From an uncultured Bacteroidales bacterium (GTDB lineage: Bacteria > Bacteroidota > Bacteroidia > Bacteroidales > UBA932), in contig OW818649.1 of assembly GCA_942492945.1 (NCBI GenBank), positions 1,211,019-1,251,018 of the forward strand: a DNA stretch of 40,000 nucleotides. Direction: 5' to 3'. The number at the start of each line of letters is the position of its first letter. Position 1 is the stretch's first letter. Below are positions 19,381 through 39,874 of this stretch, one piece after another. The notes under the pieces were generated by a model. The model was not told the DNA's origin. It ran no database searches and worked only from the letters and a program-made list of their open reading frames with translations. The position numbers were made by a program, and so were the translations under genes.

Positions 19381-20232
19381 ATGAGGGGAGAGATTAGGAA
19401 AGATATAGCCTTTTTTGAGGCATGGCTTACCGGGCATAGATACAGTGGCCGCACCATAGAAGTATATTTAAATGCAATAAATGTATTCCTAAATTATTTT
19501 GCAGATAAAGATCCGAACGAAATTACAAATTCTGACTTAGTTTTATTTAACAGAGATTATATCATTAAAAAAGGGTATTCGGTTTCTTACCAAAATCAGG
19601 TAATAAATGCCGTAAAACTCTATTTTCTCAAAATTGAGAAAAAGCAACTATTAGTAGAAGAAATTGAAAGGCCCAAAAAATACCGCCCACTCCCTAAAGT
19701 AATTTCCAAACAGATTGTTGAAAAAATGCTAGTTTCTATACCAAATTTTAAACATAAAACTGCTCTTACTCTCGTCTATGCCTGTGGATTAAGAAGAAGT
19801 GAAATTTTAAATTTGAAGCTCAAAGATTTGGATTCAAAACGAAAAACGCTTACAGTAATTAATGGAAAAGGGCAGAAAGACAGGGTGTTACCGCTGAGCG
19901 ATAAGCTGATGGATATGATAATCAGATATTATAAGATGTACAAACCCAAAGTTTATTTAATAGAAGGTCAGTTTGCCGGAGAGCAATACAGCGAAACAAG
20001 CATTGAGAATATTTTTCACAAATATTTGGGTAAAATATATAAAAATCATAGCTTTACACTGCATTGTCTGCGACACAGTTATGCCACACATCTTTTAGAG
20101 GCAGGAGTTAGTTTGAGGTACATTCAGGAGTTGTTGGGACACAAAAGTAGCAAGACAACGGAAATTTACACACACGTAAGCATGACAGGACTTCAAAATA
20201 TTAAAAACCCAGCCGATGATTTCGATTTATAG
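19381..20232 (+). CDS. tyrosine recombinase, Xer/IntI-like, without an IntI-type insertion
   Basis: 283 aa with a SAM-like N-terminal domain. The catalytic residues are in the usual order: ACGLRRSE (Arg), GKGQKDR (Lys), HCLRHSYATHLLEAG (His-x-x-Arg), LLGH and EIYTHV (Tyr). Only about 59 aa separate KDR from HCLRH, which is the Xer-type spacing. The tail reads G..NIKNPADD. Confidence 0.85.
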   Translation: MRGEIRKDIAFFEAWLTGHRYSGRTIEVYLNAINVFLNYFADKDPNEITNSDLVLFNRDYIIKKGYSVSYQNQVINAVKLYFLKIEKKQLLVEEIERPKKYRPLPKVISKQIVEKMLVSIPNFKHKTALTLVYACGLRRSEILNLKLKDLDSKRKTLTVINGKGQKDRVLPLSDKLMDMIIRYYKMYKPKVYLIEGQFAGEQYSETSIENIFHKYLGKIYKNHSFTLHCLRHSYATHLLEAGVSLRYIQELLGHKSSKTTEIYTHVSMTGLQNIKNPADDFDL

Positions 20233-20367
20233 AGATTGAACCTAACTCATACATTAATATTGAACTTAAAAGTACCTCAAAAATGAAATTTTATATTATT
20301 CAACAAACCTGTTCCAAGCCCCCCGCCGTTCTCCCCACTGGATTCACTTTGCTGAATACATAAACAA

Positions 20368-20374
20368 GTTATGC
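20368..20374 (+). other. first crossover core (attI-like junction), GTTATGC
   Basis: GTTATGCAA here is the exact reverse complement of TTGCATAAC at the end of cassette 1 (21639-21647). It lies 136 bp after the recombinase stop codon. Confidence 0.6.
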
Positions 20375-20416
20375 AAAAGCCAAAAAAAGGACACACTACC
20401 TATAAACTAAAAATAT

Positions 20417-21646
20417 ATGAAAAGGACATTTAATCTTATAGTGGGAGCATTAATCCTTGGGATTCTTGGACTGATAGCCTTCATCTTACTTTCAGATTTG
20501 AATGCTAAAGAATCTGGATTAGTGAGTTTGTTATTAACAGTATTATCCGTAATCGTTTCGTTTTTGATTTCTAATTACTATTCTCAAATTACACATAAGA
20601 AAGCGATCGAAGAAGTAAGAGAACAACATTTAGCCAATTTGAAAACCTATGCATTAAATGCTGCCGAGAAAGTTAGCAACCTTTCAAATGAATTAACCAG
20701 ACTTGCATACTATCTTCAAAATGACTTAGACGAAGAAACTGAAGAAAATAGAGAAATGCTCAATCATTCATTGACAGAAAGAATTGAAAGTGCAATACAT
20801 ATAATTAATACTTTAAAATCAGTAAATGACACATCATTAAGTGACTGGCGCGGCGTGATTGGAGAAGAATTGAACGAACAATTAGAAGAGAAAATTGAAA
20901 GAGAAAATGAATTAAAGTCATTAATTGAAAGAGTAGAGGCTTTAGTTATAGAGAATAAAAACACAATACCAAATCAGAAATTCTATGGTGGAGGATATCC
21001 TGAGGAATTAAAAACCATCAGAAAAGAATTGTCTTATGTGGCAAGTTCATTAGGAGGTAAAATAATTAGACCGAAATCATCAAAACCTGTTAAAGAAGAT
21101 ATAGAAAGTAAATGTCCAGAATGTGGAGAAGTAATCACTTACAAACAAAGACCTTTAATTAAGAGTTTTAAACCAGTAAAATGCACGAAATGTGGTAAAA
21201 GAGCTGCATCAAGATATTATAGTGATAAAGGATTTGTTCTTGAACCTGAGATTATTAAAGAGGAAGATATTGAATGTCCTTGGTGTGGTGATGATATTGA
21301 GTTTAATATAAGCTCTGTTCCATATACAACCACCACAGGGGAATGCCCTTCATGTTCTGGTCAAATTAAAGTTATAAGAAATATTGATGGTTTTAAAGTC
21401 AATAAATTTGGTCAAAATCCAGAGAAGATAAAAGAGACGCTTTCAGATGAACTTATTGATAAGATTGATGCATTATTGCCTGAACAACCTTGGCCAACAG
21501 GACAACATAAAGTTATTGCACAAGAATTAGGTGTCAGTGTTCATTTAGTTTCAAAAGCAATTACTAAATTAATAGAACAAGGGAAATATTATCCTCAAGT
21601 TGGAGGAATTGTTTATACAGAAAAAAGGGATAAGACCATTGCATAA
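20417..21646 (+). CDS. cassette 1 ORF: membrane-anchored coiled-coil protein with two zinc-ribbon-like CxxC pairs and a C-terminal HTH-like segment
   Basis: 409 aa with two N-terminal TM helices and an acidic coiled-coil region. The CxxC pairs are CPECG...CTKCG and CPWCG...CPSCS. The C-terminal segment VIAQELGVSVHLVSKAITKLIEQG is HTH-like. Confidence 0.65.
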   Translation: MKRTFNLIVGALILGILGLIAFILLSDLNAKESGLVSLLLTVLSVIVSFLISNYYSQITHKKAIEEVREQHLANLKTYALNAAEKVSNLSNELTRLAYYLQNDLDEETEENREMLNHSLTERIESAIHIINTLKSVNDTSLSDWRGVIGEELNEQLEEKIERENELKSLIERVEALVIENKNTIPNQKFYGGGYPEELKTIRKELSYVASSLGGKIIRPKSSKPVKEDIESKCPECGEVITYKQRPLIKSFKPVKCTKCGKRAASRYYSDKGFVLEPEIIKEEDIECPWCGDDIEFNISSVPYTTTTGECPSCSGQIKVIRNIDGFKVNKFGQNPEKIKETLSDELIDKIDALLPEQPWPTGQHKVIAQELGVSVHLVSKAITKLIEQGKYYPQVGGIVYTEKRDKTIA

Positions 21647-21770
21647 CACGCAATTTACGTAAGCCGGGCGATGTGGGTAATTTAAACATTTGTACATTTA
21701 CTCAAATTGGTAACGGTTAGACAGGTGCAAGCTTCGAAATCCCGGCCTCCGCATATTGCAATCGTTATGG
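21641..21770 (+). repeat. attC-like site of cassette 1 (130 bp)
   Basis: The left core GCATAAC overlaps the stop codon and the right core is GTTATGG. The arms cataacacgcaat..aagccggg and cccggcc..attgcaatcgttatg pair imperfectly. Confidence 0.75.
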
Positions 21771-22052
21771 GTCAGTTGCGAAGGAATTAGTTGTTTAAGA
21801 TGCAATTGTTCAATTGTTTGCAGAAAGTGCTGATGATAAACAATTCAGAGAATAACGGCTAAGAAGAAAGGAGCAGAAGGAGGGAAGAAGTATATATTAT
21901 TAAAGAGACATTAAATTGTAGCTTACAGGAAAAGAGATAATAGACGAAACATACCATTATGAAAGCAACCGCACCCATAACACAAGGTACAGTTCAGCCA
22001 CCCGGCTGCATAAGGTTTATAGGAATAGGGTGGCCGCCCCGTACCCACGTCC
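21764..22052 (+). repeat. ORF-less 289-bp cassette, copy A
   Basis: It starts GTTATGGGT and ends at the next G|TT. It contains no ORF of 60 aa or more. It carries a 30-nt polypurine tract (21861-21890) and its own 85-bp attC. Confidence 0.8.
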
Positions 22053-22059
22053 GTTATGG
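21975..22059 (+). repeat. attC-like site of ORF-less cassette copy A (85 bp)
   Basis: ACCCATAAC is the reverse complement of the cassette start GTTATGGGT. The inner stem is gccaccc/gggtggc. The right core is GTTATGG. Confidence 0.75.
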
Positions 22060-22341
22060 GTCAGTTGCGAAGGAATTAGTTGTTTAAGATGCAATTGTTC
22101 AATTGTTTGCAGAAAGTGCTAATGATAAACAATTCAGAGAATAACGGCTAAGAAGAAAGGAGCAGAAGGAGGGAAGAAGTATATATTATTAAAGAGACAT
22201 TAAATTGTAGCTTACAGGAAAAGAGATAATAGACAAAACATACCATTATGAAAGCAACCGCACCCATAACACAAGGTACAGTTCAGCCACCCGGCTGCAT
22301 AAGGTTTATAGGAATAGGGTGGCCGCCCCGTACCCACGTCC
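22053..22341 (+). repeat. ORF-less 289-bp cassette, copy B (tandem duplicate)
   Basis: Near-identical to copy A by eye (2 substitutions noted) and the same 289-bp length. Confidence 0.8.
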
Positions 22342-22348
22342 GTTATAG
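22264..22348 (+). repeat. attC-like site of ORF-less cassette copy B (85 bp)
   Basis: Same as the copy A site, but the right core is GTTATAG, supplied by the next cassette. Confidence 0.75.
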
Positions 22349-22401
22349 GCAACCATGTTGAAAATCCAGCGAGACTTACAAACTCGAAAACTTTTTAGAA
22401 T

Positions 22402-22836
22402 ATGGAAGAATTCGAAAAGATATTATTGAAAAGCGATTGTCAAAGAAGACTTGAAAAACCAAAGAAAACAATTGAAGAAATTGAAACTCTTATCAGATTT
22501 CAGCTTCCGTTAGACTACAAGAAATTTCTAGAAAATTATGTATGCTTTGAAGGTTCAATAGGTAAAGAATATTTACAACTTTGGAGACTTGAAGACCTTA
22601 CTAATTTGAATGAAAACTATGGAATTTTTGATAACCTAGAAAATACAATTGCAATTGGAGGAAACGGCAGTAGTGAATTCATTGCTATTGAAATAATAGA
22701 TAAAACCAATTATAGAATTGTACTTTCATCATTTATAGACTTAGACAAACAATATCACCTTGAAATAGGAACATCATTTTCAGATTTTCTAACTCGACTT
22801 GACAACGGGAAAGATTGGTTTGGAAATGATGATTGA
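22402..22836 (+). CDS. cassette ORF: SMI1/KNR4 (SUKH-1) family immunity-type protein
   Basis: 144 aa. IEEIETLIRFQLPLDYKKFLENY...IGGNGSSEFIAIE... matches the SUKH/SMI1_KNR4 pattern (LP.DY..FL, then IG.dGgG). No adjacent toxin gene. Confidence 0.7.
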   Translation: MEEFEKILLKSDCQRRLEKPKKTIEEIETLIRFQLPLDYKKFLENYVCFEGSIGKEYLQLWRLEDLTNLNENYGIFDNLENTIAIGGNGSSEFIAIEIIDKTNYRIVLSSFIDLDKQYHLEIGTSFSDFLTRLDNGKDWFGNDD

Positions 22837-22880
22837 TAACATGAAACGGAATATTTTTTGACGACATATAAAACGGCAGC

Positions 22881-23013
22881 CTATAACACGTGGTTAAAAA
22901 TATTGGGGCTGATGCGCAGATAAGCAGGTTTTTAGTACTTTAGTAAAAGTTTAACGTGGAACAGATGTTCGGTTCTTAACGCCCCAACATTTCCAACCAC
23001 GGAAACGTTATGT
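22881..23013 (+). repeat. attC-like site (133 bp)
   Basis: GCCTATAAC is the reverse complement of the cassette start GTTATAGGC (22342). The arms are acgtggttaaaaatattgggg and ccccaacatttccaaccacg. The right core is GTTATGT. Confidence 0.8.
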
Positions 23014-23065
23014 GAAATAAGAAAAAACAACATATATTCAATTTTATTTTCTATCAGTAAAAATT

Positions 23066-23491
23066 ATGGAAACAATTACTCAAATAATTTTATCTTTTCT
23101 TGGTATAATTGGAATTGGTGGTATAGTAACTGCTATTTTCAATAAATCCAAAGAAATTGAATTTCAAAAGCTTGAACAAAAACAACGTCGTTATAAATCA
23201 ATGCTTCTATATATGGATGTTTATTTTGTACCAGAAAACATCAAATATCTATCAAGTCGACAGCCTGATATTCATTCAGCTAAAGATGTCATTGAATACT
23301 TGAAAGCAGAGTATCATGAAATGCTTCTGTATGCCTCAAAAAAAGTAATTCTTTCAGCAAAGAGATTTATTGAAAATCCAAGTAGAGATCTTTTTTTGGA
23401 AGTAATATTGGCTATGAGAGGAGATTTATGGATTAAGAAGTCTGACTTAGACTTAAAAGAACTTGTACTAACTGAAAATAAACAAGAATAA
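23066..23491 (+). CDS. cassette ORF: hypothetical protein with one N-terminal TM helix
   Basis: 141 aa. TM segment IILSFLGIIGIGGIVTAIF. No family recognised. Confidence 0.6.
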   Translation: METITQIILSFLGIIGIGGIVTAIFNKSKEIEFQKLEQKQRRYKSMLLYMDVYFVPENIKYLSSRQPDIHSAKDVIEYLKAEYHEMLLYASKKVILSAKRFIENPSRDLFLEVILAMRGDLWIKKSDLDLKELVLTENKQE

Positions 23492-23510
23492 ATATGAGTT
23501 TTCTTACATC

Positions 23511-23569
23511 ACATAACAGCAGATATGCGGATATGCTTCGCACATCGCATAATCCGCAAATCGTTATAA
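23511..23569 (+). repeat. attC-like site (59 bp)
   Basis: TCACATAAC is the reverse complement of the cassette start GTTATGTGA (23007). The stem is gcggat/atccgc. The right core is GTTATAA. Confidence 0.8.
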
Positions 23570-23591
23570 ACCATTAATTTTGATATACATA

Positions 23592-24221
23592 ATGCGACAA
23601 GCAGTTATTATTTTATTATTATTTATTATTACAATTGATTGTAAAGCTCAGCCTATAGAAATTTTAGAAGAGACAATTTATGAATTGAAATCACCTGATT
23701 TGAATAATTGCCTCGAAAGATATAACCTCATTGCAAATGAAGTGGAATTAATTTACAATCAGGACACTACAAAAATTGAGTTATACCTTCAAATTGAAGA
23801 AAATGGATTAATAAGTAGAGTTAAAAATTTTGATAATGTTCCTGAAGATTTTTATGCATCATATAATGTAATCCGAAGTAAAATAGGTAAAATCATATAT
23901 ATAAGCGAGTATCCACATAGTGGTTCAGGTGATTGGGATCTTGGTTATGAAAACTATTTTGACGAAAAAGGAAATTTAATTGCATTTATTAGAAAATGTG
24001 GCTTTTTCAATGGGGTCTGTGCAGAAGTTATACACGAAAAATCAGAATATTTCTATAATCTGAAACATGTTTTGGTTAAAAAGACTTATGAGATAACTGA
24101 TGAGAATAAAAAACCTTTGAATTATAAAAATTGTATTTTTAATTATCGATACGATTATAAGCAATACCTGACTATAGAAGATTATTTAGAAAAATATAAA
24201 TTTACTAATAACGGTTTATAA
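23592..24221 (+). CDS. cassette ORF: hypothetical secreted protein
   Basis: Signal peptide MRQAVIILLLFIITIDCKAQP. Start moved from TTG 23580 to ATG 23592. The stop codon lies inside the attC left core. Confidence 0.6.
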   Translation: MRQAVIILLLFIITIDCKAQPIEILEETIYELKSPDLNNCLERYNLIANEVELIYNQDTTKIELYLQIEENGLISRVKNFDNVPEDFYASYNVIRSKIGKIIYISEYPHSGSGDWDLGYENYFDEKGNLIAFIRKCGFFNGVCAEVIHEKSEYFYNLKHVLVKKTYEITDENKKPLNYKNCIFNYRYDYKQYLTIEDYLEKYKFTNNGL

Positions 24222-24274
24222 CAGCAGCTTGCCTTCATGCTAGCGCACGAACTGCAAGCCGCAAAACGTTATGG
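24216..24274 (+). repeat. attC-like site (59 bp)
   Basis: GGTTTATAAC is the reverse complement of the cassette start GTTATAAACC (23563). The stem is gcagcttgc/gcaagccgc. The right core is GTTATGG. Confidence 0.8.
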
Positions 24275-24556
24275 GTCAGTTGCGAAGGAATTAGTTGTTT
24301 AAGATGCAATTGTTCAATTGTTTGCAGAAAGTGCTAATGATAAACAATTCAGAGAATAACGGCTAAGAAGAAAGGGGAAGAAGGAGGAAAGAAGTATATA
24401 TTATTAAAGAGACATTAAATTGTAGCTTACAGGAAAAGAGATAATAGACAAAACATACCATTATGAAAGCAACCGCACCCATAACACAAGGTACAGTTCA
24501 GCCACCCGGCTGCATAAGGTTTATAGGAATAGGGTGGCCGCCCCGTACCCACGTCC
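24268..24556 (+). repeat. ORF-less 289-bp cassette, copy C
   Basis: This third copy has the same length and boundaries, with a few substitutions in the polypurine tract. Confidence 0.8.
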
Positions 24557-24563
24557 GTTAGCG
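24479..24563 (+). repeat. attC-like site of ORF-less cassette copy C (85 bp)
   Basis: The left core is CCATAAC and the right core is GTTAGCG, supplied by the next cassette. Confidence 0.75.
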
Positions 24564-24603
24564 GTAATTAGAGATCACGACATAAAACAAAATAAATTAA
24601 TAA

Positions 24604-24864
24604 ATGGAACTACCTAGAGACAGGGTAATAATAGCAGGTGACGTGAGCGATAGAGACGGAATTGGAGTTGAAATTTATCGTGACAACAAGTTAGTAATCG
24701 AAATATTTCGTGATGACACAAAACGGACAAGAACTGTAACACTTTTTCAAAAAGACTTATCATTAGACTTACTCGAAGAAAGTATTGAGATTTTCAAAAA
24801 AGAAGTTCCTTGGGACTTTATTGAATATGATAATAATAATTTAGACAAGAATTTGAGAAAATAA
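24604..24864 (+). CDS. cassette ORF: hypothetical 86-aa acidic protein (copy 1 of 2)
   Basis: The protein is identical to the ORF at 39606-39866. No family recognised. Confidence 0.6.
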   Translation: MELPRDRVIIAGDVSDRDGIGVEIYRDNKLVIEIFRDDTKRTRTVTLFQKDLSLDLLEESIEIFKKEVPWDFIEYDNNNLDKNLRK

Positions 24865-24872
24865 TTAACTAC

Positions 24873-24930
24873 CGCTAACAGCAACTTGCATTCACGCTAA
24901 CGCGCAAACTGCAAGCCGCAACCGTTAGCA
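24873..24930 (+). repeat. attC-like site (58 bp)
   Basis: ACCGCTAAC is the reverse complement of the cassette start GTTAGCGGT (24557). The stem is gcaacttgca/tgcaagccgc. The right core is GTTAGCA. Confidence 0.8.
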
Positions 24931-24954
24931 CCCATACAAAAAAGACAACAAGAA

Positions 24955-25860
24955 ATGAGAGTATTAATAATTCTAATAACAACGCTTTGGATTTTTGGCT
25001 GTTCTAATACTGACAACTCTAAAGGTTCAAAAAATGACAGGTTGAAAACAATCTATAAAAACACTTTACAGATTAATACAGACGTAGTGAATGAAAACGT
25101 ACAATACATTGGCTTTATTGATAAATTTTATTTTTCCAATGAAAATGAAGCATACATTGAACTTTACTTCATTAAAAACGAGATAAATTCTGACGAGTAC
25201 AACAAAATTGTAAAACTTACTGACTCTTTAATTTATGAGGACGATGAAAATAGTAGACACAGATTTCCAGAAAGTTTAGCACCAAAATATTTTGACCTAA
25301 GAGGACTTTCAAAACTTAAAATCTATGACAACAACAATAAATTTGTTTCTAATGCTGACTTTCTTCGTGTAGAGTATTTAAATCAGAATATATCACCTGT
25401 TTTTATAGCTGTGTACAAGACAGAAAAAAAAATCAAAGCTGATAGTTACTATGGGATAAGTAATTTTAGTGGAACATTTGAGACAATGAAATATTTAATT
25501 ACAAAAGATACCATTTTGACACAAAATCTTCTGACAAAACTTAACGAAAAAAGACCTTACTACGGACTTGAAAACAATGGGACTCACTTGCATTTTTCCA
25601 ACAGCGATACAGTTTTATCTGTTATAAATTCTGAGAATTTTGCCTACATAGTCTTGACAACAAGCAATGATTTTAAGGTTCTATATAAAAGTCTTGACTT
25701 TGAAAACGTTTCAGACGTAAAGATTATTCCCCTATCTAATAATAAGTTTCCATACATATTAACGCGGAATGTTAAACCCGAAACTGATGTAATGTGGGAT
25801 AACTTACTGTATTACGATGGGAAAAAATATACAACTACGAACAGACAACGAATTGAATAG
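24955..25860 (+). CDS. cassette ORF: hypothetical lipoprotein
   Basis: 301 aa with a lipobox (LWIFGCSN). No family recognised. Confidence 0.6.
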   Translation: MRVLIILITTLWIFGCSNTDNSKGSKNDRLKTIYKNTLQINTDVVNENVQYIGFIDKFYFSNENEAYIELYFIKNEINSDEYNKIVKLTDSLIYEDDENSRHRFPESLAPKYFDLRGLSKLKIYDNNNKFVSNADFLRVEYLNQNISPVFIAVYKTEKKIKADSYYGISNFSGTFETMKYLITKDTILTQNLLTKLNEKRPYYGLENNGTHLHFSNSDTVLSVINSENFAYIVLTTSNDFKVLYKSLDFENVSDVKIIPLSNNKFPYILTRNVKPETDVMWDNLLYYDGKKYTTTNRQRIE

Positions 25861-25866
25861 TACGGG

Positions 25867-25918
25867 TGCTAACAAAGGCTATATGCCATAAACGGCACAT
25901 AGCCCCAAATCGTTATGG
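25867..25918 (+). repeat. attC-like site (52 bp)
   Basis: GGGTGCTAAC is the reverse complement of the cassette start GTTAGCACCC (24924). The stem is ggctatatgcc/ggcacatagcc. The right core is GTTATGG. Confidence 0.8.
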
Positions 25919-25963
25919 GCAATGGCAAATTCCGCAAATAATCTAAAATACATATAACGAAAT

Positions 25964-26275
25964 ATGAAAAAATATGCAATTTTAACTTTTACTGCCGAAG
26001 ATATGACTTACGGATCAGCTCCAAGTAAATCTGGTCCAGCAAGATTAAATCAAGGAGAATTTAATTCTTCACATAGACGGTCTGATAAAACCGTTGAAGA
26101 TTTAATACGAAATGAAGATGGGAGCATTAGACAATTCACTTCTCAAGTGAGCGCTTTGAATTACTGTGTCGATAATGGTTGGAATCTCGAGCAAACTTTA
26201 TTTGAACCTCATGATGGTTATAATGCAAGAGAACCTCTCAGTAACTATATATTTATATTGTCGAGAGAAAAATAA
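25964..26275 (+). CDS. cassette ORF: hypothetical 103-aa protein
   Basis: It is the only ORF in its cassette and is co-oriented with the array. No family recognised. Confidence 0.55.
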   Translation: MKKYAILTFTAEDMTYGSAPSKSGPARLNQGEFNSSHRRSDKTVEDLIRNEDGSIRQFTSQVSALNYCVDNGWNLEQTLFEPHDGYNAREPLSNYIFILSREK

Positions 26276-26300
26276 ATGCAATTCGTTCAATTACTAAAGC

Positions 26301-26355
26301 CCATAACACGCGTTAAATCCCATTGAAACGGGATTTAGCCGCTGAACCGTTGGCG
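26301..26355 (+). repeat. attC-like site (55 bp)
   Basis: GCCCATAAC is the reverse complement of the cassette start GTTATGGGC (25912). The stem is taaatccc/gggattta. The right core is GTTGGCG. Confidence 0.8.
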
Positions 26356-26406
26356 GCAAGGCTGAGAGACAGTGCAAACTTGAACCAATAGACATAAAAA
26401 CTATAT

Positions 26407-27258
26407 ATGGAAATGCTAGTTGAGACAGCAGTAATAAATGGGATAAAGTATATAAAGGACGAAAACGAACATGTCTTTCTTGTACCTGTTACAAAGTTAG
26501 GTGACTTTCGTGCCATTGACTTACCAAGTCAATCAAGTTTACATGTAACGGGAATAGACCTTAATGACTTATCTCTTTATTTTTCAGTTGTTCACGGTGG
26601 CAATGGCTATGCATCAATATTTATCCTGTTTTCAATTCAATGTAACGATTATTCGGAAGGTAGTAGGCGAATTCACGAGACAGTTAATGCCATTGCAACA
26701 ATTGCATCCCCAAATTACCTTGACACTCCACGAATTGGGGCTGACCAGAACGACGATAACATGTGGAAACATTACGTTACTTACAGTTTTGATGAAGAAT
26801 TGTCCTGCAAAATAATTGTAAGAGAACTGGCAGAACAGATAATTTATGCATTGACAAATGCTAAACCAAGTATTCAAGCATTCCTTTGTCATTCTTCTGA
26901 AGATAAGCATATTGTAGAGCAATTTGCTTATAGACTTCGTTCAACAAAAAGCTATGTATGGTTTGACAAATGGGAAATTAAAGTTGGAGATAGTATTGTT
27001 GAAAAAATAAATGAAGGATTAGAGAAAATGACTCACTTGATTATTTTTTTATCAAAATCATCTGTTAATAAGCCTTGGGTGAAAAAAGAATTATCATCAG
27101 CATTAATGAGAAAACTAGAAGACAACTCTGTTAGGGTAATGCCGATAAAAATTAATGAATGTGATATTCCTGTAATAATAAAAGACATTAAATATGCTGA
27201 TTGCACGGAAGATTTTGAGAGTGGATTTAGTCAACTAATTGCTGACATCACAAACTAA
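26407..27258 (+). CDS. cassette ORF: TIR-domain protein with an unknown N-terminal domain
   Basis: The C-terminal roughly 125 aa read AFLCHSSEDKHIVEQFAYRLRS...VWFDKWEIKVGDSI...IIFLSKSSVNKPWVKKELSSAL, a bacterial TIR pattern that includes the conserved Glu (codon 27088-27090). The N-terminal roughly 155 aa were not recognised. Confidence 0.75.
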   Translation: MEMLVETAVINGIKYIKDENEHVFLVPVTKLGDFRAIDLPSQSSLHVTGIDLNDLSLYFSVVHGGNGYASIFILFSIQCNDYSEGSRRIHETVNAIATIASPNYLDTPRIGADQNDDNMWKHYVTYSFDEELSCKIIVRELAEQIIYALTNAKPSIQAFLCHSSEDKHIVEQFAYRLRSTKSYVWFDKWEIKVGDSIVEKINEGLEKMTHLIIFLSKSSVNKPWVKKELSSALMRKLEDNSVRVMPIKINECDIPVIIKDIKYADCTEDFESGFSQLIADITN

Positions 27259-27307
27259 ACATTATAGAACACGAATGACTATTAAACATCAGACTAACAA
27301 TAGCCCA

Positions 27308-27423
27308 GCCGCCAACACACAATATAAAACAGTTGGGGTTCACTGGTTTGCGAGGGTTTGGTTCTCGCGCCAGCATTCTTGTCGGTGGACAAGAACGCAG
27401 CCCGAAAACCCAACCGTTTCATA
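27308..27423 (+). repeat. attC-like site of the TIR cassette, 5' part (interrupted by a group II intron)
   Basis: GCCGCCAAC (27308-27316) is the reverse complement of the cassette start GTTGGCGGC (26349). The left arm tataaaacagttggggtt matches the reverse complement of aaacccaaccgtttcata (27406-27423). Confidence 0.6.
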
Positions 27424-29372
27424 GTGTGCCGAGAAGCAGAACAACGGCAAAAGAACGTTCTGCATGCTGTAATTGAGATGGTGGAAACAGTTTAAGTTGG
27501 CCCACCGATGCCGTCTTACAGGAGGGGGCATCAAACCACCTGAAGGTGCTTTGGTAAAGAGCCATGGTGCTGAGCGTTCAGGTTAAAAGTTGCACTATTA
27601 GTGTGGCTTGGTATGAATAAAGGAGTTGAACGAAAGTGAATCGCTGATGAGGTGTCGAGAAGTTGCCACACCCTGTCAAAAGCTACAGGGCTGAGCGTAA
27701 AAAACAGTCCAGGGAACTGTTTTTGCGAAGAGCCAAGCCGGTGGGCTGCGAACGGAGTTATAAGTTTAGCGGATACCTGATTTACTGGCTAAGCGGCAGG
27801 CGTCATACAGGCGACAAGACCTTTATTCAGGCTTAATTACGGAACTCGGGAACCTGCACGACAATGCCAAGGGAGGAACACAATGGGATCACCCCAGAGG
27901 TTTAAAACCGAAGAGCCGTGCAGGGACGGACTAACCCGTATTAGTGATGAAGTTCCTGTAATGGGAATGGAGCGAAGGGGTTAGGTTATACAGTATCATA
28001 ACATTTAACAACTCGCAAGAGGATGACTTTATGGAATGAGACAAGATCAGTACCGGTAAGCAAGGAACAAGTATGGCTTGCTTACAAGAAAGTGCGTTCC
28101 AACCAAGGGAGTGCCGGAGTCGACCAGATCAGCATGGAAGAATATGATGCAGAACGGTCTAAGCACTTGTACAAACTATGGAACAGGATGGCATCGGGGA
28201 GTTATTTTCCCCCACCTGTCAAAGAAGTTGAGATACCTAAGAAAGACGGTAAAGTCCGCAAACTTGGAATCCCAACCATCAGCGACCGTGTTGCACAAAT
28301 GGTCATCAAGGAATACCTTGAACCAAGGTTCGAACAAATATTCAGCCCGCACTCATACGGTTACCGTCCTGGCAAGAATGCCCATCAGGCGTTGTCTGCG
28401 GTCCGGGCAAACGTGCGAATGCTGGATTGGGCAATAGACCTTGACATTAAAGGTTTCTTCGACAATATTGACCACGAGAAGCTGATGCTTGCGTTGAAGA
28501 AACATGTAAACGAGAAGTGGTGCCTTATGTACATTAAGCGGTGGTTACAGACACCCGTGCAAACGATAACCGGAGAGCTAGTAGCGAAGCATGGGAAAGG
28601 TACACCACAGGGAGGAGTGATAAGCCCATTACTGGCCAACCTGTTTCTTCATTACGCCATGGACAAATGGTTGGAGAAAACCCACTCTGCGGTGAGGTAC
28701 GTGCGTTATGCCGATGATGCGATACTGCACTGCAAGAGCAAAGAACAGGCTGACTATGTGTTGCGCAACCTGAACAAACGGATGAGACAGTGCGGACTTG
28801 AACTGCACCCTGAAAAGACAAAGCTTGTTTACTGTAGGGACTACAGACGACAAGGTGAGTACTCGAATGTTAAGTTCGATTTTCTTGGGTACTCGTTTCA
28901 GCCTCGCACAGCAAAGTCGAAGAGGGACGGGGCACTGTACCTCGGCTACGACTGCGCCATCAGTATTAGTTCAAAGAAGCGTATTGCAGAAAAGATGAGA
29001 GAACAGGACATTGACCACCTGACGCACAAAAGCATAGTAGGGGTTGCCCAATTTCTGGAGCCGTATATCAGGGGATGGATCAATTACTACGGAAAGTTCA
29101 GGTTATGGGAGATGAATACGGTCTTTCAGCTTTTACGAAGACGGCTTGTAATGTGGGCACGGAAACGGTACAAGCGTTACAAGACGAGTATTAACCGGGC
29201 CTATAGTTGGCTTGAAAGAGTTAAAGAACAATATCCGACATTGTTTTACCAATGGAGGGTAGGTTTCTCGTAATGAATTGCTTAGATTTGTATAACAAGA
29301 GCCGTGTGATGGGAGACTATCAAGCACGGTTCTGTGAGAGGCTGGAGGGGAAGTTCCTCCGGCCTACTCGAC
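27424..29372 (+). mobile_element. group II intron (bacterial class C-like, no endonuclease domain) inserted in an attC
   Basis: The 5' end GTGTG lies about 600 nt upstream of the RT ORF in GC-rich structured sequence. Domain V is gagccgtgtgatgggagactatcaagcacggttc (29299-29332). The domain VI hairpin has a bulged A 7 nt from the proposed 3' end (..cctActcgac). The boundaries were set by hand and are accurate to within a few nt. Confidence 0.75.
28023..29273 (+). CDS. group II intron reverse transcriptase/maturase
   Basis: 416 aa with RT motifs (GVDQIS, IPKKDGKVRKLGIPTISDRV, GYRPGKNAHQA, TPQGGVISPLLANL, the YADD box in RYADDAILHC) followed by a maturase X domain (GWINYYG). There is no HNH/En domain. 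Confidence 0.9.
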   Translation: MTLWNETRSVPVSKEQVWLAYKKVRSNQGSAGVDQISMEEYDAERSKHLYKLWNRMASGSYFPPPVKEVEIPKKDGKVRKLGIPTISDRVAQMVIKEYLEPRFEQIFSPHSYGYRPGKNAHQALSAVRANVRMLDWAIDLDIKGFFDNIDHEKLMLALKKHVNEKWCLMYIKRWLQTPVQTITGELVAKHGKGTPQGGVISPLLANLFLHYAMDKWLEKTHSAVRYVRYADDAILHCKSKEQADYVLRNLNKRMRQCGLELHPEKTKLVYCRDYRRQGEYSNVKFDFLGYSFQPRTAKSKRDGALYLGYDCAISISSKKRIAEKMREQDIDHLTHKSIVGVAQFLEPYIRGWINYYGKFRLWEMNTVFQLLRRRLVMWARKRYKRYKTSINRAYSWLERVKEQYPTLFYQWRVGFS

Positions 29373-29388
29373 CCGCAAAACGTTATGT
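29373..29388 (+). repeat. attC-like site of the TIR cassette, 3' part with right core GTTATGT
   Basis: ccgcaaaacGTTATGT resembles the 3' arms of the attCs at 24259-24274 and 24916-24930. GTTATGTGCC starts the next cassette. Confidence 0.6.
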
Positions 29389-29408
29389 GCCATGTTAAAA
29401 CAAACCCC

Positions 29409-29978
29409 ATGAAATTGATACTGACAATTTTTATAAGCTTATGCTCTCTGACAATTTATTCGCAGACAAATGATTTCTTTCCAACAAAAATTAATTGTAG
29501 CAAGGAGATATCTGGAGTTTCAAAGGATTATTGTATTTATGATTTAGGCGATCATATTCTTCTCGTTGGATTTAATACTAATAATTTAATAGCAATGATT
29601 AAATCCAAAAAGTCAAAGGATCTTGGATTTGTGTATGATGAGACAACTTCTGACGCTATGATTATTAAGCCAAAATTCTTTGAAAGCACTGACAAGAAAA
29701 TTATTGTCATAATGCTTGAACTTGCAGCTGAATATAGCTGGGGACAAAAGATTGTTATGATTAAGAATGACAAGGTTTATGATTGTGGCTTCCTGGATTA
29801 TATGACAAATGAGAATAATGGAGAATCGATTGCAAAATATGCGATACTAAAACAAGTAAATGGACAAATCGTTCTAACTTTTCAGCCACAAGACTTCGCA
29901 GACAAGGATGAAAGAATTGTTAAATCGCAAACTTTGAAATATTTACTAACGGATAAAGGATTAAAACAGATAAAATAA
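29409..29978 (+). CDS. cassette ORF: hypothetical secreted protein
   Basis: Signal peptide MKLILTIFISLCSLTIYSQ. Start moved from 29334, because the upstream part of the track ORF runs through intron domain VI and the attC. Confidence 0.6.
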   Translation: MKLILTIFISLCSLTIYSQTNDFFPTKINCSKEISGVSKDYCIYDLGDHILLVGFNTNNLIAMIKSKKSKDLGFVYDETTSDAMIIKPKFFESTDKKIIVIMLELAAEYSWGQKIVMIKNDKVYDCGFLDYMTNENNGESIAKYAILKQVNGQIVLTFQPQDFADKDERIVKSQTLKYLLTDKGLKQIK

Positions 29979-29986
29979 AACACGGC

Positions 29987-30116
29987 ACATAACATCATAT
30001 AAATTTTATTGGGGCGGAATTGCTGATTTTAAAGAGCTTGCTTCTAATTTAGCTCTTAACGTACCGACAAGAAATCGCTTCGTAATCCCCAACAAATTTT
30101 ATATGTAACGTTAGGC
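29987..30116 (+). repeat. attC-like site (130 bp)
   Basis: GGCACATAAC is the reverse complement of the cassette start GTTATGTGCC (29382). The arms are catcatataaattttattgggg and ccccaacaaattttatatg. The right core is GTTAGGC. Confidence 0.8.
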
Positions 30117-30129
30117 GGCATATTAACGA

Positions 30130-31522
30130 ATGAAGAAAGGACCAACAACATATACGACAATAAGAGAAATTGATATCAATTTGGATATTGATGTTTTCTT
30201 ATTGAATTCGCGAATTTTTACCACGACAGATTTAAGTATAGTTGATAAACATCACAAATCAGAAAAAGGGAAAAAGTATTTATGCATTAGTATTCAAATT
30301 CAACTTGACGATTTTGAATCCGTGTCTGACGGTGCCGCGTATGCAAGGCCACGATTTTTAATAATTTTAGGCATATTGACTTTCTTAACTCAAGAACTAT
30401 TTACACCATTCGAGTTTTTTAGTAATTCAACAGTCGTTGGAAATCTAAAAAGAGGTAAACGAAATAAATTCAAATTTAATAAGTCAAACTACTTGTCTGA
30501 CTTCAATAAAATTGTGGCCCTTACAGAATCTCAAAATGAAAATGAAAAAAAGGCTCTTCTATTCTCTGATAGATCGATACCGAAAAGCCCTATACTTGGA
30601 AAAGGAAAGTGCAGAAAACATGATACATGATGATGAGGTTCTTCTTTCACACTTTCACATTCTAGAACTACTCTCAACCAAATACTATGCTAGACAAAAG
30701 GAATTAGCAACTCAATCGATTAAGCAATTCTCAGAGAATATACTCAAAGACATTTACCTATTAGAAGGCAATCAGCTTCAATCAGAACAGAGTTCCAAAA
30801 GCAAACTCATTGAAAGTATTCTCATCTCTGAACTGCCGGTTGCAAGCAAAATAATGTTCATGTTTCAAGAACAAGGCATTTTAACGCATCGTCTCAAAGC
30901 CTTCATTTCAGACTTGGTAAAAGATCGCAACTCAGTTGCACATGGTAGACATGTTTATCAGGAAAGGGTCATTTTCCCAGTACCTCCTTTCTTTCCGCTA
31001 ATTAGAAACAGAGAATATTCTTTTGAAATGCTTAGAATTTTATCAGGTAGGTCAATCGCTTCGTTCTTGAATCTGGATTATTTAGACGAAGAATGGGCCG
31101 AATTGGGCTTACCTCCTTCCATTGATGAGCTGAATAAATTTATTAGTGAAAAGCGATTTGAAAAAATTAAAATTGACGATTTTTATGCTGGCAATGACAA
31201 CGATATTACACCCTATACATTTGCGTACTACTTGCTAAATAAAAAACTGAAAATAGAAAACGCCATAATTGCTCTATCTGACACTATTTTGAAATACAGG
31301 AAAATTGAAGATGAGATAACACAGATTGTCTTGGCTGTGGTCTTAATCGTTGACAAAGCAAAAGGTGAATTAAAAAATAAATGTATTGAAATCATAAAAC
31401 TTTCCTCTGAAAATCGCTGGTTACCTGACTTTAAAATGAGAGATGTCTTGTATTATCTTGAATATTTAGGACACGAGCCAAAGACACTTCGAGAAATGAT
31501 AACAAAACGAGAGATTAGATGA
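30130..31522 (+). pseudogene. cassette gene for a HEPN-motif (RNxxAH) protein, split by a frameshift in an A7 run (alternatively two separate ORFs, 30130-30630 and 30512-31522)
   Basis: Two overlapping ORFs lie in adjacent frames. The frames switch at aaaaaaa (30545-30551), and removing one A would fuse them into one ORF of about 464 aa. The downstream part carries LVKDRNSVAHGRH (Rx4H at 30926-30943). Confidence 0.5.
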
Positions 31523-31531
31523 AATACGACC

Positions 31532-31662
31532 GCCTAACATGGGTTTTGCGTTAGTGGGCGGACAGTGCGACTAGTAACATTTGAGCAATTAATAAACGTT
31601 GGTGCTGCCAGACAGTTTTCGGTTTCAAAAGCCCACCAACGCAAAGCCCGAAACCGTTAGCG
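31532..31662 (+). repeat. attC-like site (131 bp)
   Basis: CCGCCTAAC is the reverse complement of the cassette start GTTAGGCGG (30110). The arms are atgggttttgcgttagtgggc and gcccaccaacgcaaagccc. The right core is GTTAGCG. Confidence 0.8.
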
Positions 31663-31704
31663 GTTATGCTAAAAAAACGACACACAGTCAAACAACTATG
31701 ATAA

Positions 31705-32103
31705 ATGAAAATTGAATTTGACATACCTGATGAAAAAGTTCAAGACCTTAACATAAATGGCAGGTCTGAACTGACTCGACATTGTAAACAGTGGACCGAG
31801 GACATCATTGATGAAGCAACAAGGATTGAAGCTAGCAGAAATGATGGAACAAGTATTGAGATTACTGCTGCAATAATAAGTGAAGCAGCAACTTATTCTA
31901 AAAGATTTCCATTAAAAAAGAAAATAAAATGGTGGTTAAAAGCAATCCAAGTAACAGCTTTTATTTCTTCTTTATTAGCAGGAAGTCTACTTGATATAGA
32001 AAAATTCAAAGAGACAAGCCATGTTATTTGGTTTATCGCAACTTTATTTGTAGCAGTTGCAACCACTGTTTATTTAACTTTTAACTCTGAGAAAAATGGA
32101 TAA
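31705..32103 (+). CDS. cassette ORF (gene 1 of a two-gene cassette): small protein with two C-terminal TM helices
   Basis: 132 aa with TM segments AIQVTAFISSLLAGSLL and VIWFIATLFVAVATTVYLTF. Its stop overlaps the start of the next ORF by 8 nt. Confidence 0.6.
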   Translation: MKIEFDIPDEKVQDLNINGRSELTRHCKQWTEDIIDEATRIEASRNDGTSIEITAAIISEAATYSKRFPLKKKIKWWLKAIQVTAFISSLLAGSLLDIEKFKETSHVIWFIATLFVAVATTVYLTFNSEKNG

Positions 32104-32824
32104 GAACTATATATATGAAAAGCTGACTCCATCAGCAAAAGAAGCATTGAATGAAACAATACAGGAGCTTCATGACTTGTTGATTTCGAGAGCGAATTCA
32201 ATAGCTCAAAAGGGACAAACTGCTGACAAAGAAATCTCATTAAGGGACATAATTGAAGCAAAAGAATCATTATTCAAAGCCAAATTGGATAAGGAAAAAT
32301 CTGACTATAGACGTAAAAGAATGATGACCCTCATTTCCTTAACTGGTGCCTTATATTCTATAATTGGAATATTTGTTTATATATATCAAAATCAAGATTT
32401 TGTATTAGAGAAAAATCTTGGACTTATAATCATACTAACTGGCATTATGACAATATTTGTGGGATTTGTTTATTTTCAATTATCTAGAAAATCAGATGAA
32501 AAGTCTAAAGATTTAGATATGGATTATAGCAGTTCTGACAGTGATTTCGATATAATAAAACGTTGGCAAATAATTGAAAAATTGGGAAGCAATTTAATGA
32601 GACAACGTGGATTTTCAAATAATGAATCAAAATCAATAAATGATATTTTAAAGTTTCTTTCATTTGAGCTAAAAGATGAAATGTTATACATTGAAATGAG
32701 AGAGCTTTTATCGATACGAAATAGAATTTTACATGAAGGTTATGAATTGACTCGAAATGAGAAACAATTATATTTAAATAAAGCCGAAAAGATAATTGAA
32801 TTACTCGAAAAACTAGAAAGATAA
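32096..32824 (+). CDS. cassette ORF (gene 2): membrane protein with a C-terminal HEPN-like RNxxxH motif
   Basis: 242 aa with two central TM helices. The C-terminal region reads ELLSIRNRILHEG (Rx4H at 32717-32734). Confidence 0.6.
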   Translation: MDKNYIYEKLTPSAKEALNETIQELHDLLISRANSIAQKGQTADKEISLRDIIEAKESLFKAKLDKEKSDYRRKRMMTLISLTGALYSIIGIFVYIYQNQDFVLEKNLGLIIILTGIMTIFVGFVYFQLSRKSDEKSKDLDMDYSSSDSDFDIIKRWQIIEKLGSNLMRQRGFSNNESKSINDILKFLSFELKDEMLYIEMRELLSIRNRILHEGYELTRNEKQLYLNKAEKIIELLEKLER

Positions 32825-32833
32825 AGCACAAAC

Positions 32834-32962
32834 CGCTAACACGCGGTATAGCCAATAAGGGTTTCAGAGGTATGCGAAGGGTTGTAGCCCACCTCAAAGT
32901 TCGTTGTAACTTGACAGGAAATCGCCCGCAATCCCTTACTGGCCATACCGCCACCGTTGAAG
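32834..32962 (+). repeat. attC-like site (129 bp)
   Basis: AACCGCTAAC is the reverse complement of the cassette start GTTAGCGGTT (31656). The arms are cgcggtatagccaataaggg and cccttactggccataccgcc. The right core is GTTGAAG. Confidence 0.8.
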
Positions 32963-33006
32963 GGCATTAAAACAAATATCATCTTATAAAACAACGTAAT
33001 AAAAGA

Positions 33007-33561
33007 ATGGAACAATCAAATAGATCTTTGGAAGAACTAAGAAAGAAGAAATGGTCCTATGTTTTTTTGCATGGCTCTGTTTATTGGGGATTACCTGTTG
33101 CAATTATTGCGTTTGTATTTAATAGCGACTTTGAAATTGAGAACATGCATATTTCAAGATTCATACTATTTGTAATAGTATTTATGATTACGGGAATATT
33201 CACAGGAATTATGCAATTTAAGCAAATAGAGAAGGTTCGTTTAAGGCAAAATGACAATGAGGAAATTACACAAGGAATTCAGATAATAAAATCCGGGAAC
33301 TTATGGAGTTATGAGAGTTTGAATATTTACATGGAGAATATTGAAACCCTACTCGTTCAAAATGAAAAATTCTGGTTTGAAGGGAATACATCTCCTGAAA
33401 GAATTAATGAATGTTTTAATGTAGTTTTGGAAGATTTTCAACAATTACAAAAAAACACTAGTTTTAATGAATTCACAAGAACCCTTGAAGTGAAAGTCCA
33501 GATATTTGATAATTCTGGGAGTAAGTTTCTTTTGTTTGAAAAAGTAATTAGTAAAAATTAA
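33007..33561 (+). CDS. cassette ORF: hypothetical protein with two TM helices
   Basis: 184 aa with TM segments VYWGLPVAIIAFVF and FILFVIVFMITGIFTGIMQF. No family recognised. Confidence 0.6.
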   Translation: MEQSNRSLEELRKKKWSYVFLHGSVYWGLPVAIIAFVFNSDFEIENMHISRFILFVIVFMITGIFTGIMQFKQIEKVRLRQNDNEEITQGIQIIKSGNLWSYESLNIYMENIETLLVQNEKFWFEGNTSPERINECFNVVLEDFQQLQKNTSFNEFTRTLEVKVQIFDNSGSKFLLFEKVISKN

Positions 33562-33565
33562 CGCC

Positions 33566-38773: not shown

Positions 38774-38801
38774 ACCATATTATTTAACGAAACGAGAAAC
38801 A

Positions 38802-39419: not shown

Positions 39420-39429
39420 AAAATACGGT

Positions 39430-39866: not shown

Positions 39867-39874
39867 TTAACTAC

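What the first reader, a model, noticed from the sequence alone, without database searches (positions are those of the whole stretch)
19381..20232. Short Xer/IntI-like tyrosine recombinase heading the cassette array, co-oriented with it and lacking the IntI insertion
The full tyrosine-recombinase catalytic set (R, K, HxxR, H, Y) is visible. The layout parallels integron integrases as I remember them, for example ERPKKYRPLPKVIS.., LKDLD...TLTVINGKGQKDR and a C-terminal THV....G.....NPADD tail resembling the ..SP(L/A)D tail of IntI1 and VchIntIA. However, the segment between KDR and HxLRH is only about 59 aa, which is the Xer length. Canonical IntI proteins carry a roughly 35-40-aa extra domain there that contacts the flipped-out bases of folded attC. 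The gene also points the same way as the cassettes, whereas classical integrons have a divergent intI; the same-direction layout is known only for the 'inverted' Treponema-type integrons. If this protein moves the cassettes, it recognises attC-like hairpins without the hallmark IntI domain, which would make it a distinct cassette recombinase lineage.
Basis: partly seen in the sequence, partly recalled or inferred. Interest (0 to 1): 0.75.

Follow-up and report, generated by a model that had tools for sequence, protein, structure and literature searches.

The report
Bacteroidota integron with a short integrase
A short Xer-sized tyrosine recombinase sits beside a genuine integron-style array of at least 18 gene cassettes, so Bacteroidota appear to have their own integron lineage that works without the protein domain thought essential for integron integrases.

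Summary
ORF 19381-20232 (+) encodes a 283-aa tyrosine recombinase with the full catalytic set. The spacing from GKGxKxR to HxLRH is 59 aa, against 100 aa in every canonical IntI fetched.

The array downstream behaves like an integron. An attI crossover (CATAAACAAG|TT) lies 136 nt after the stop codon. Eighteen cassettes follow, each ending in an imperfect hairpin site (..YTAAC...GTTR..). In 17 of 18 cassettes, the six variable bases of a site's left box match the right box of the preceding site. That is the footprint of cassette circles recombined at G|TT.

Homologues at 52-91% identity all carry the same attI half-site, followed by unrelated sequence, wherever the flank could be read. One subclade has the array in divergent orientation. 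Flavobacteriia homologues (44-46%) and a Chryseobacterium plasmid (50%) have the same layout.

The hairpins differ from canonical attC. They have a one-sided 2-4-nt bulge next to the R box and an invariant G·T pair, and they lack the single flipped-out bases that the IntI insert contacts.

The protein falls outside the IntI clade. The closest described system is Bacteroidales rAID-1, whose mechanism of assembly is unpublished. Catalysis by this protein is inferred, not shown.

The parts
19381..20232 (+). 283-aa tyrosine recombinase, the putative integrase of the array. It has an N-terminal SAM-like core-binding domain and a catalytic domain, and no IntI insert.
20287..20376 (+). attI region. 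A conserved block (AATTTTATATTATTCAACAAACC...GAATACATAAACAAG) ends at the crossover G(20368)|TT(20369). Sequence to the right is cassette-derived and varies between genomes.
20369..39926 (+). Array of 18 cassettes, all ORFs co-directional, GC 0.32 without the intron. It runs on past the window end.
21639..21772 (+). attC C1 (134 nt). Its R'' TTGCATAAC is complementary to the attI right half GTTATGCAA.
21973..22061 (+). attC C2, of the 289-nt ORF-less cassette, copy 1
22262..22350 (+). attC C3, ORF-less cassette copy 2
22879..23015 (+). attC C4, of the SUKH/SMI1_KNR4 cassette (ORF 22402-22836)
23509..23571 (+). attC C5 (63 nt)
24214..24276 (+). attC C6 (63 nt)
24477..24565 (+). attC C7, ORF-less cassette copy 3
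24871..24932 (+). attC C8. This cassette is duplicated as C18.
25865..25920 (+). attC C9 (56 nt)
26299..26357 (+). attC C10 (59 nt)
27308..29390 (+). attC C11, of the TIR-domain cassette (ORF 26407-27258). It is split by a group II intron.
27424..29372 (+). Group II intron inserted between the stem and R' of attC C11. RT/maturase ORF 28023-29273.
29985..30118 (+). attC C12
31530..31664 (+). attC C13
32832..32964 (+). attC C14
33564..33629 (+). attC C15
38640..38775 (+). attC C16, closing the 5.1-kb cassette that holds the 1569-aa STAND NTPase ORF (33775-38484)
39428..39567 (+). attC C17. This is the only link with 5 of 6 complementarity.
39873..39934 (+). attC C18, the duplicate of C8

Best explanation
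The ORF encodes the dedicated site-specific recombinase (integrase) of a Bacteroidota-type integron.

Shown by sequence:
- An attI site whose conserved left half ends at G|TT lies 136 nt after the gene.
- Eighteen cassettes follow, each closed by an imperfect hairpin site (R''..YTAAC - stem - GTTR..R').
- Cassette boundaries fall at G|TT of R', as in classical integrons.

Inferred:
- The recombinase binds double-stranded attI and the folded bottom strand of the hairpin sites.
- It inserts circular cassettes at attI and excises them by site x site recombination.
- It chooses the strand by an invariant G.T pair that closes the R box and a 2-4-nt T-rich bulge on the same arm as the cleavage site. 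Classical integrons instead use single flipped-out bases, which their integrase reads with the extra domain that this protein lacks.

The cargo is conflict and defence genes (SUKH immunity, TIR, a STAND NTPase) plus many unknowns. Functionally the platform therefore resembles rAID-1 arrays and the defence 'biobanks' of sedentary chromosomal integrons.
For: 1. Cassette-circle signature. The six variable bases of each R'' equal the reverse complement of the preceding R' in 17 of 18 links (6/6), with one link at 5/6. Against a site's own R' the match averages about 2.7 of 6. The first link joins attI to C1 with 9 of 9 bases.
2. Duplicated cassettes share identity that stops exactly at C|GTTA on the left and GTTA| on the right. 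This places the crossover at R' and assigns each hairpin to the ORF upstream of it.
3. attI. 'ATAAACAAG|TT' with 2 or fewer mismatches occurs 27-160 nt after the stop in 27 family loci at 52-91% identity, against 5% of shuffled segments. The mean top-base frequency is 0.83 to the left of the crossover and 0.49 to the right. The attI left half changes with the recombinase clade: TATTCAATAG|TT in Flavobacteriia.
4. The four apparent exceptions (L013-15, L022) are a subclade with a divergent layout. L022 has the same attI core and chained cassettes upstream on the opposite strand.
5. A covariance model built on the window's sites gives 21 of 22 hits at E<0.05 downstream of family recombinases, on the expected strand. 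It gives none in canonical IntI loci.
6. Hairpin under selection. All 9 stem pairs show compensatory changes. The covariation score is 0.46 against 0.17 in shuffles (0 of 500 reach it). The G.U closing pair is present in 34 of 34 sites. The bottom strand folds better than the top in 16 of 17 sites.
7. Structural correlate of the missing domain. Canonical sites have a two-sided central loop plus 1-2-nt bulges on the 3' arm in 32 of 36 cases. Family sites have a one-sided 5'-arm bulge, and 3'-arm bulges in only 2 of 39.
8. No other recombinase lies in the window. Canonical integrons are reported as nearly absent from Bacteroidetes (PMC9024848).
Against: - There is no experimental evidence, and the host genome outside the 40-kb window was not examined for another integrase.
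- Use of a single-stranded substrate and the choice of the bottom strand are inferred from folding energies and the G.T pair, not shown.
- Bulge calls come from minimum-free-energy folds, and the covariation alignment was fitted to the model.
- Many homologous contigs end within 0.1-1.4 kb of the gene, so for them only attI could be checked, not the array.
- No promoter for the cassettes was identified.
Confidence: 0.8

Rival explanations
1. The cassettes are moved by a different enzyme, either a canonical IntI encoded elsewhere in the genome or the host XerC/D. The adjacent short recombinase would then be a bystander or have another job.
For: Only 40 kb of the genome was seen. The protein fails every curated IntI cutoff. 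Clusters of attC sites without an integrase (CALINs) are known in other phyla (PMC4889954, listed).
Against: Gene and attI are adjacent in about 30 loci across 44-91% identity and in two orientations. The attI left half co-varies with the recombinase clade. The hairpins lack the canonical extrahelical bases that a true IntI reads. The model of these sites finds nothing in canonical IntI loci. Canonical integrons are nearly absent from Bacteroidetes.
Confidence: 0.1
2. The recombinase is the integrase of a larger mobile element. It moves the whole low-GC island as one unit, for example into a tRNA gene, rather than single cassettes.
For: A tRNA gene lies directly after the gene in the L013/L014/L015/L022 subclade, and in L014/L015 that tRNA appears truncated. 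rAID systems are reported to be shared between co-resident strains (PMC12247911). A member sits on a Chryseobacterium plasmid.
Against: The recombination footprints are at cassette level: 18 chained junctions and duplicated single cassettes with exact boundaries. Close relatives share the attI left half but carry different first cassettes. In L022 the array with the same attI lies on the other side of the gene.
Confidence: 0.06
3. It is a housekeeping Xer-type recombinase that resolves chromosome dimers, and the neighbouring site is a dif-like site exploited by integrating elements.
For: The best curated profile hit is the XerA model NF040815 (197 bits). The PDB sequence best hit is archaeal XerA. 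The protein has Xer length.
Against: It is below the cutoff for XerA (220), XerC (335) and XerD (330). Members occur on plasmids and in more than one copy per genome (L033 and L037 are from the same Tenacibaculum assembly). The gene is always linked to a cassette array. The sites are 56-140-nt hairpins, not 28-bp dif sites. XerD is a far weaker fold match (9e-8) than IntI (1.6e-15).
Confidence: 0.03

Closest known systems
Classical integrons (IntI1, VchIntIA; attI, attC, cassette arrays)
   Same: A tyrosine recombinase lies next to attI and is followed by an array of promoter-less cassettes. Each cassette ends in an imperfect hairpin site with RYYYAAC / GTTRRRY boxes. The crossover is at G|TT. 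The cassette-circle complementarity rule holds. The bottom strand folds better. The attI core resembles attI1 (..AAACAAAG|TTA, from my memory of attI1). A group II intron sits in a site. The cargo is defence-type genes.
   Different: The integrase lacks the roughly 40-aa insert (59 vs 100 aa spacing) and lies outside the IntI clade. The sites have a one-sided 2-4-nt bulge beside the R box and an invariant G.T pair, in place of a two-sided central spacer plus single extrahelical bases on the other arm. The gene is usually co-directional with the cassettes and attI lies at its 3' end.
rAID-1, recombinase-associated acquired interbacterial defence systems of gut Bacteroidales (Ross et al. 2019, bioRxiv 10.1101/471110; PMC12247911)
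   Same: [quoted passage not shown] SUKH immunity genes are among the cargo. The host order is Bacteroidales.
   Different: Identity to the defining B. fragilis recombinase could not be measured. Only one of about 15 cassette ORFs here is a recognisable immunity gene. The relatives found here are environmental Bacteroidales, Flavobacteriia and Cytophagia rather than gut species. The papers give no recombination mechanism, and the 2025 preprint calls rAID biogenesis an open question.
Archaeal XerA / bacterial XerC-XerD dif recombinases
   Same: Same length and two-domain architecture. These give the best profile hit (NF040815) and the best PDB sequence hit (4a8e). No insert in the catalytic domain.
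   Different: Scores are below all curated cutoffs. There is no dif context. The gene is linked to hairpin-bounded cassettes and occurs on plasmids.
'Inverted' integrons (Treponema denticola type), in which intI points the same way as the cassettes
   Same: The integrase gene is co-directional with the cassettes. L062 (Roseisolibacter) is an in-session example.
   Different: Those integrases keep the IntI insert (100-aa spacing in L062) and their sites keep canonical 3'-arm bulges.

Membership tests
Integron integrase (IntI) | Tyrosine-recombinase catalytic residues R-K-H-R-H-Y | tested here: met
   R138, K166, H228, R231, H254 and Y263 are conserved. PF00589 E=1.5e-35.
Integron integrase (IntI) | IntI-specific additional domain (insert of about 35-40 aa between the beta-hairpin and HxxR) | tested here: not met
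   Spacing is 59 aa against 100 aa in canonical IntIs. The alignment to 2a3v is split. TIGR02249 scores 168.8 against a cutoff of 265, and NF011946 scores 107.8 against 435.
Integron integrase (IntI) | Placement inside the IntI clade | tested here: not met
   In the NJ tree the IntI clade has 99% bootstrap support and excludes the family. Sister grouping has only 46-53% support.
Integron (system) | attI adjacent to the integrase gene, with the crossover at G|TT | tested here: met
   A conserved left half is followed by a variable right half in about 29 loci. The attI-to-C1 link matches 9 of 9 bases.
Integron (system) | Cassettes bounded by attC sites, with R'' complementary to the preceding R' | tested here: met
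   17 of 18 links match 6/6. Duplicate boundaries are exact.
Integron (system) | attC bottom strand with extrahelical bases on the R''-L'' arm and an unpaired central spacer | tested here: not met
   3'-arm bulges occur in 2 of 39 family sites against 32 of 36 canonical sites. The family has a one-sided 5'-arm bulge instead.
rAID-1 | Recombinase more than 44% identical to B. fragilis BF9343_RS08045 | not testable with these tools
   The reference sequence could not be obtained. Indirect evidence: a homologue labelled 'uncultured Bacteroides sp.' is 61% identical (L025).
rAID-1 | Two or more co-directional downstream genes | tested here: met
   About 18 co-directional cassette ORFs.
rAID-1 | Downstream genes with GC of 41% or lower | tested here: met
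   Array GC is 0.339, or 0.324 without the intron, against 0.415 upstream.
rAID-1 | Cargo dominated by orphan immunity genes | tested here: inconclusive
   One SUKH/SMI1_KNR4 cassette, plus TIR and a STAND NTPase. Most ORFs have no Pfam match.
XerC / XerD / XerA | Score above the curated equivalog cutoff | tested here: not met
   XerA 197.2 against 220, XerC 163.9 against 335, XerD 160.5 against 330.

The most novel reading that the evidence does not exclude
Bacteroidota (Bacteroidia, Flavobacteriia, Cytophagia, and at least one plasmid) carry a second, phylum-wide lineage of integrons. Its integrase never had, or has lost, the IntI insert. Its recombination sites mark the reactive strand with a bulge and a G.T pair instead of flipped-out bases. 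Standard integron finders miss this lineage, and it is the unexplained assembly mechanism of gut rAID immunity arrays.
Probability: 0.6. Interest if true: 0.85.

Novelty: new variant of a known kind. Interest (0 to 1): 0.78.

Why it matters
The IntI insert and the extrahelical bases of attC are taught as the defining solution for recombining folded single-stranded cassettes. A working platform that has neither would show a second structural solution.

It would also mean integron surveys undercount. IntegronFinder reports almost nothing in Bacteroidetes.

It would give a concrete, testable mechanism for how rAID immunity arrays grow. These arrays are abundant in the human gut, and a 2025 preprint still calls their biogenesis open.

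Finally, it points to a large unexplored cassette pool of defence and conflict genes in a dominant gut and environmental phylum, including a plasmid-borne, potentially mobile version.

Tried and rejected
- A simple arm-complementarity scan for hairpins found the long sites but missed the short ones and gave false positives. I replaced it with manual annotation plus the chain rule.
- The exact-match chain search is symmetric under reverse complement and breaks at single mutations, so it undercounts arrays.
- Covariance model R1 finds the 56-66-nt sites well but scores the 130-nt sites poorly.
- I could not identify the B. fragilis rAID-1 recombinase. Two protein searches, a cluster look-up, a plasmid tblastn and a contig look-up gave no labelled gut Bacteroides sequence.
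- The Bacteroidetes promoter consensus TTTG..TAnnTTTG is not enriched and does not occur in the attI region.
- The first attI regex picked wrong sites and was redone with a mismatch-scored motif.
- I first read L013-15 and L022 as 'homologues without arrays'. I rejected that reading once L022 showed a divergent array.

Full report
**Observation.** The ORF at 19381-20232 (+) is real and encodes 283 aa. It matches Pfam Phage_integrase (E=1.5e-35) and the N-terminal SAM-like domain PF13495. The catalytic R138, K166, H228, R231, H254 and Y263 are conserved across 13- and 48-member family alignments.

No curated NCBIfam model is passed. XerA scores 197 bits against a cutoff of 220. Integron integrase TIGR02249 scores 169 against 265 and matches in two stretches. 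XerC scores 164 against 335 and XerD 160 against 330. Against solved structures the best sequence hits are archaeal XerA (1e-35), then VchIntIA. The VchIntIA alignment splits into query 18-178 and 222-277, leaving about 42 IntI residues unmatched.

Measured on all proteins fetched, the distance from GKGxKxR to HxLRH is 58-59 aa in this family and 100 aa in every canonical IntI. An AlphaFold model (pLDDT 85.8) is most similar by Foldseek to VchIntIA (1.6e-15) and XerA (3.3e-14). XerD is much weaker at 9e-8.

**What lies downstream.** From 20.4 kb to the window end, all sizeable ORFs point the same way as the recombinase. GC falls from 0.415 upstream to 0.32-0.34 in the array. Every gap between ORFs holds an imperfect inverted repeat that starts ..YTAAC just after the stop codon and ends GTTR... 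I annotated 18 such sites of two size classes, 56-66 nt and 89-140 nt.

The decisive test is the cassette-circle rule of integrons. If cassettes move as circles recombined at G|TT of the right box, the left box of each site should pair with the right box of the preceding site, not with its own. That holds in 17 of 18 links (6 of 6 variable bases), with one link at 5 of 6. Against a site's own right box the match averages about 2.7 of 6.

The chain starts at GTTATGCAA at 20368, which is 136 nt after the recombinase stop codon. Its 9-mer is the exact complement of the left box of the first site.

Two cassettes are present in more than one copy: a 289-nt ORF-less cassette (three copies) and an 86-aa ORF cassette (two copies). 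Identity between copies stops exactly at C|GTTA on the left and GTTA| on the right. So the crossover is at the right box, and each hairpin travels with the ORF upstream of it, as in classical integrons.

**Is the recombinase tied to the array?** The protein belongs to a large family (7,981 database proteins at E<=1e-20). I fetched 80 genomic loci.

In 27 loci at 52-91% identity with at least 120 nt of downstream sequence, the motif ATAAACAAG|TT (2 or fewer mismatches) lies 27-160 nt after the stop codon. Only 5% of shuffled segments contain it. Sequence is conserved up to the G (mean top-base frequency 0.83) and unrelated after the TT (0.49). This is what an attI site joined to different first cassettes should look like.

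Flavobacteriia homologues at 44-46% identity have a different conserved left half (TATTCAATAG|TT) and chained arrays downstream. A Chryseobacterium plasmid homologue (50%) has ACATATAAACAAG|TT followed by cassettes, an IS110 element and a group II intron.

Four loci at 70% identity seemed to lack attI because a tRNA gene follows the gene directly. In the one with enough flank (L022), the same attI core and chained cassettes lie upstream on the opposite strand. That is the classical divergent layout. So the family neighbours an array wherever this could be checked, in either orientation.

Many contigs break within 0.1-1.4 kb after the gene, as expected for repeat-rich arrays.

A covariance model built from the window's sites hits only the array in the window, always on the minus strand. 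Across about 1 Mb of loci, 21 of 22 hits at E<0.05 lie downstream of family recombinases on the expected strand. None lies in canonical IntI loci.

**The sites differ from canonical attC.** The bottom strand folds better than the top in 16 of 17 sites. Its consensus is 5'-YTAAC-G-(2-5 nt, T-rich)-long stem-(0-1 nt)-T-GTTR.

On an alignment of 34 model hits from 12 sources, all 9 stem pairs show compensatory changes. The covariation score is 0.46 against 0.17 in shuffles, and 0 of 500 shuffles reach it. The pair that closes the R box is G.U in 34 of 34 sites. That pair would be an A.C mismatch on the top strand. The alignment was fitted to the model, which favours the structure. The slid-register controls (29-46% of cells paired, against 86% in register) argue that the signal is real.

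I applied the same fold-and-parse procedure to canonical arrays in four IntI loci (L050, L058, L062, L069), identified independently by the chain rule. Canonical sites have a two-sided central loop ([5/4], [7/5] or [2/2]) and 1-2-nt bulges on the 3' arm in 32 of 36 cases. Family sites (window, L004, L006, L033, L034, L037) have a one-sided 2-4-nt bulge on the 5' arm next to the R box, and 3'-arm bulges in only 2 of 39.

In the VchIntIA-VCR structure the IntI-specific insert contacts the flipped-out bases (established knowledge, MacDonald et al. 2006; Smyshlyaev et al. call the insert 'essential for integron function'). Protein and site have therefore changed together: no insert, and no extrahelical bases.

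**Phylogeny.** The tree is neighbour-joining on 273 columns with 200 bootstraps. Canonical IntIs form a clade with 99% support. The Bacteroidia-plus-Chryseobacterium core of the family has 100% support. The family is not inside the IntI clade. Its grouping with IntI rather than with XerA or XerC/D has only 46-53% support. Identity of the window protein is 28-33% to IntIs, 35% to P. abyssi XerA and 26-28% to E. coli XerD and XerC. This is a distance tree, so deep branching is unresolved.

**Cargo.** Recognisable cargo comprises one SUKH/SMI1_KNR4 immunity protein, a TIR-domain protein and a 1569-aa STAND NTPase. Most other ORFs have no Pfam match. A group II intron (Rfam RF01999 and RF00029; RT/maturase ORF) sits inside site C11, between the stem and the right box.

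**Mechanism proposed.** Shown by sequence:
- attI lies beside the gene.
- Cassettes are bounded by hairpin sites.
- The crossover is at G|TT of the right box.
- The hairpin is under selection.
- Gene and array are linked across the phylum.

Inferred:
- This protein catalyses attI x site insertion and site x site excision.
- The folded bottom strand is the substrate.
- The G.T pair and the adjacent bulge, which lie 1-2 nt 3' of the predicted AA|C cleavage point on the same arm, replace extrahelical bases as the strand and orientation marker.
- The strictly conserved C-terminal tail (IKNPxDDFDL) may act in synapsis.

How the cassettes are transcribed is unknown.

**Comparison with what is known.** The system works like an integron, but the protein fails two defining IntI features, the insert and clade membership. 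The sites fail the extrahelical-base feature.

The closest described system is rAID-1 of gut Bacteroidales. It is defined by a 5' XerD-like recombinase, co-directional genes at 41% GC or lower, and intergenic repeats 'reminiscent of integrons'. The layout and GC criteria are met here. The identity criterion could not be tested because the reference protein was not obtainable. [quoted passage not shown]

IntegronFinder 2.0 reports only one complete integron in Bacteroidetes. NCBI's annotation pipeline already names family members 'site-specific tyrosine recombinase/integron integrase'. Smyshlyaev et al. noted that the insert is 'not fully conserved' in their integron-like subgroup. I found no paper that describes the site architecture, attI or the cassette-circle signature for this lineage.

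**Verdict.** This is a real integron-like platform with a distinct integrase lineage and a distinct site architecture. It is best classed as a new variant of a known kind. The main gaps are the absence of experimental proof of catalysis and the untested identity to the rAID-1 reference.

Noticed in passing
window 27424-29372: A group II intron (RT/maturase ORF 28023-29273) is inserted inside recombination site C11, between its stem and right box, in the same orientation as the cassettes. The Chryseobacterium plasmid array (L081) also carries a group II intron and an IS110 element next to its sites.
   Followed up: partly
window 21765-22053, 22054-22342, 24269-24557: A 289-nt cassette without an ORF is present three times, twice in tandem. 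It starts TTATGGGTCAGTTGCG. ORF-less cassettes with the same 5' motif are the first cassette after attI in L004, L006 and L008, and one occurs in L001. Their function is unknown; a promoter or small RNA is possible.
   Followed up: partly
window 24556-24927 and 39558-39929: Exact duplication of one cassette (86-aa ORF) at two distant array positions. The boundaries fall precisely at the recombination crossover.
   Followed up: yes
L025 9434-10840; L081 8803-9846; proteins P0090-P0248: Many homologues (347-490 aa) carry an extra 60-190-aa N-terminal extension that the window protein lacks. Thousands of such long forms exist in metagenomes.
   Followed up: no
plasmid hits H7-H40: N-terminally truncated homologues at 44-48% identity, one annotated TnpF, sit on many Acinetobacter, Klebsiella and Aeromonas plasmids. 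They may be remnants of Bacteroidota-derived DNA.
   Followed up: no
L013, L014, L015, L022 just after the recombinase stop: In the divergent-layout subclade a tRNA gene directly follows the recombinase gene. In L014 and L015 the tRNA sequence is interrupted after ..GGATCT, which suggests an insertion there.
   Followed up: no
L042, L044, L046, L047, L061, L071: Short recombinases (59-aa spacing) from Acidobacteriota and others sit near the IntI clade in the tree, with weak support. The exact-match chain search found no array beside them.
   Followed up: no
window 33775-38484 and 26407-27258: A single 5.1-kb cassette encodes a 1569-aa STAND-type NTPase, and another encodes a TIR-domain protein. 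Both are candidate anti-phage defence genes carried as cassettes.
   Followed up: partly
window 15470-15543: A tRNA gene lies about 4 kb upstream of the recombinase (Rfam, 68 bits).
   Followed up: no
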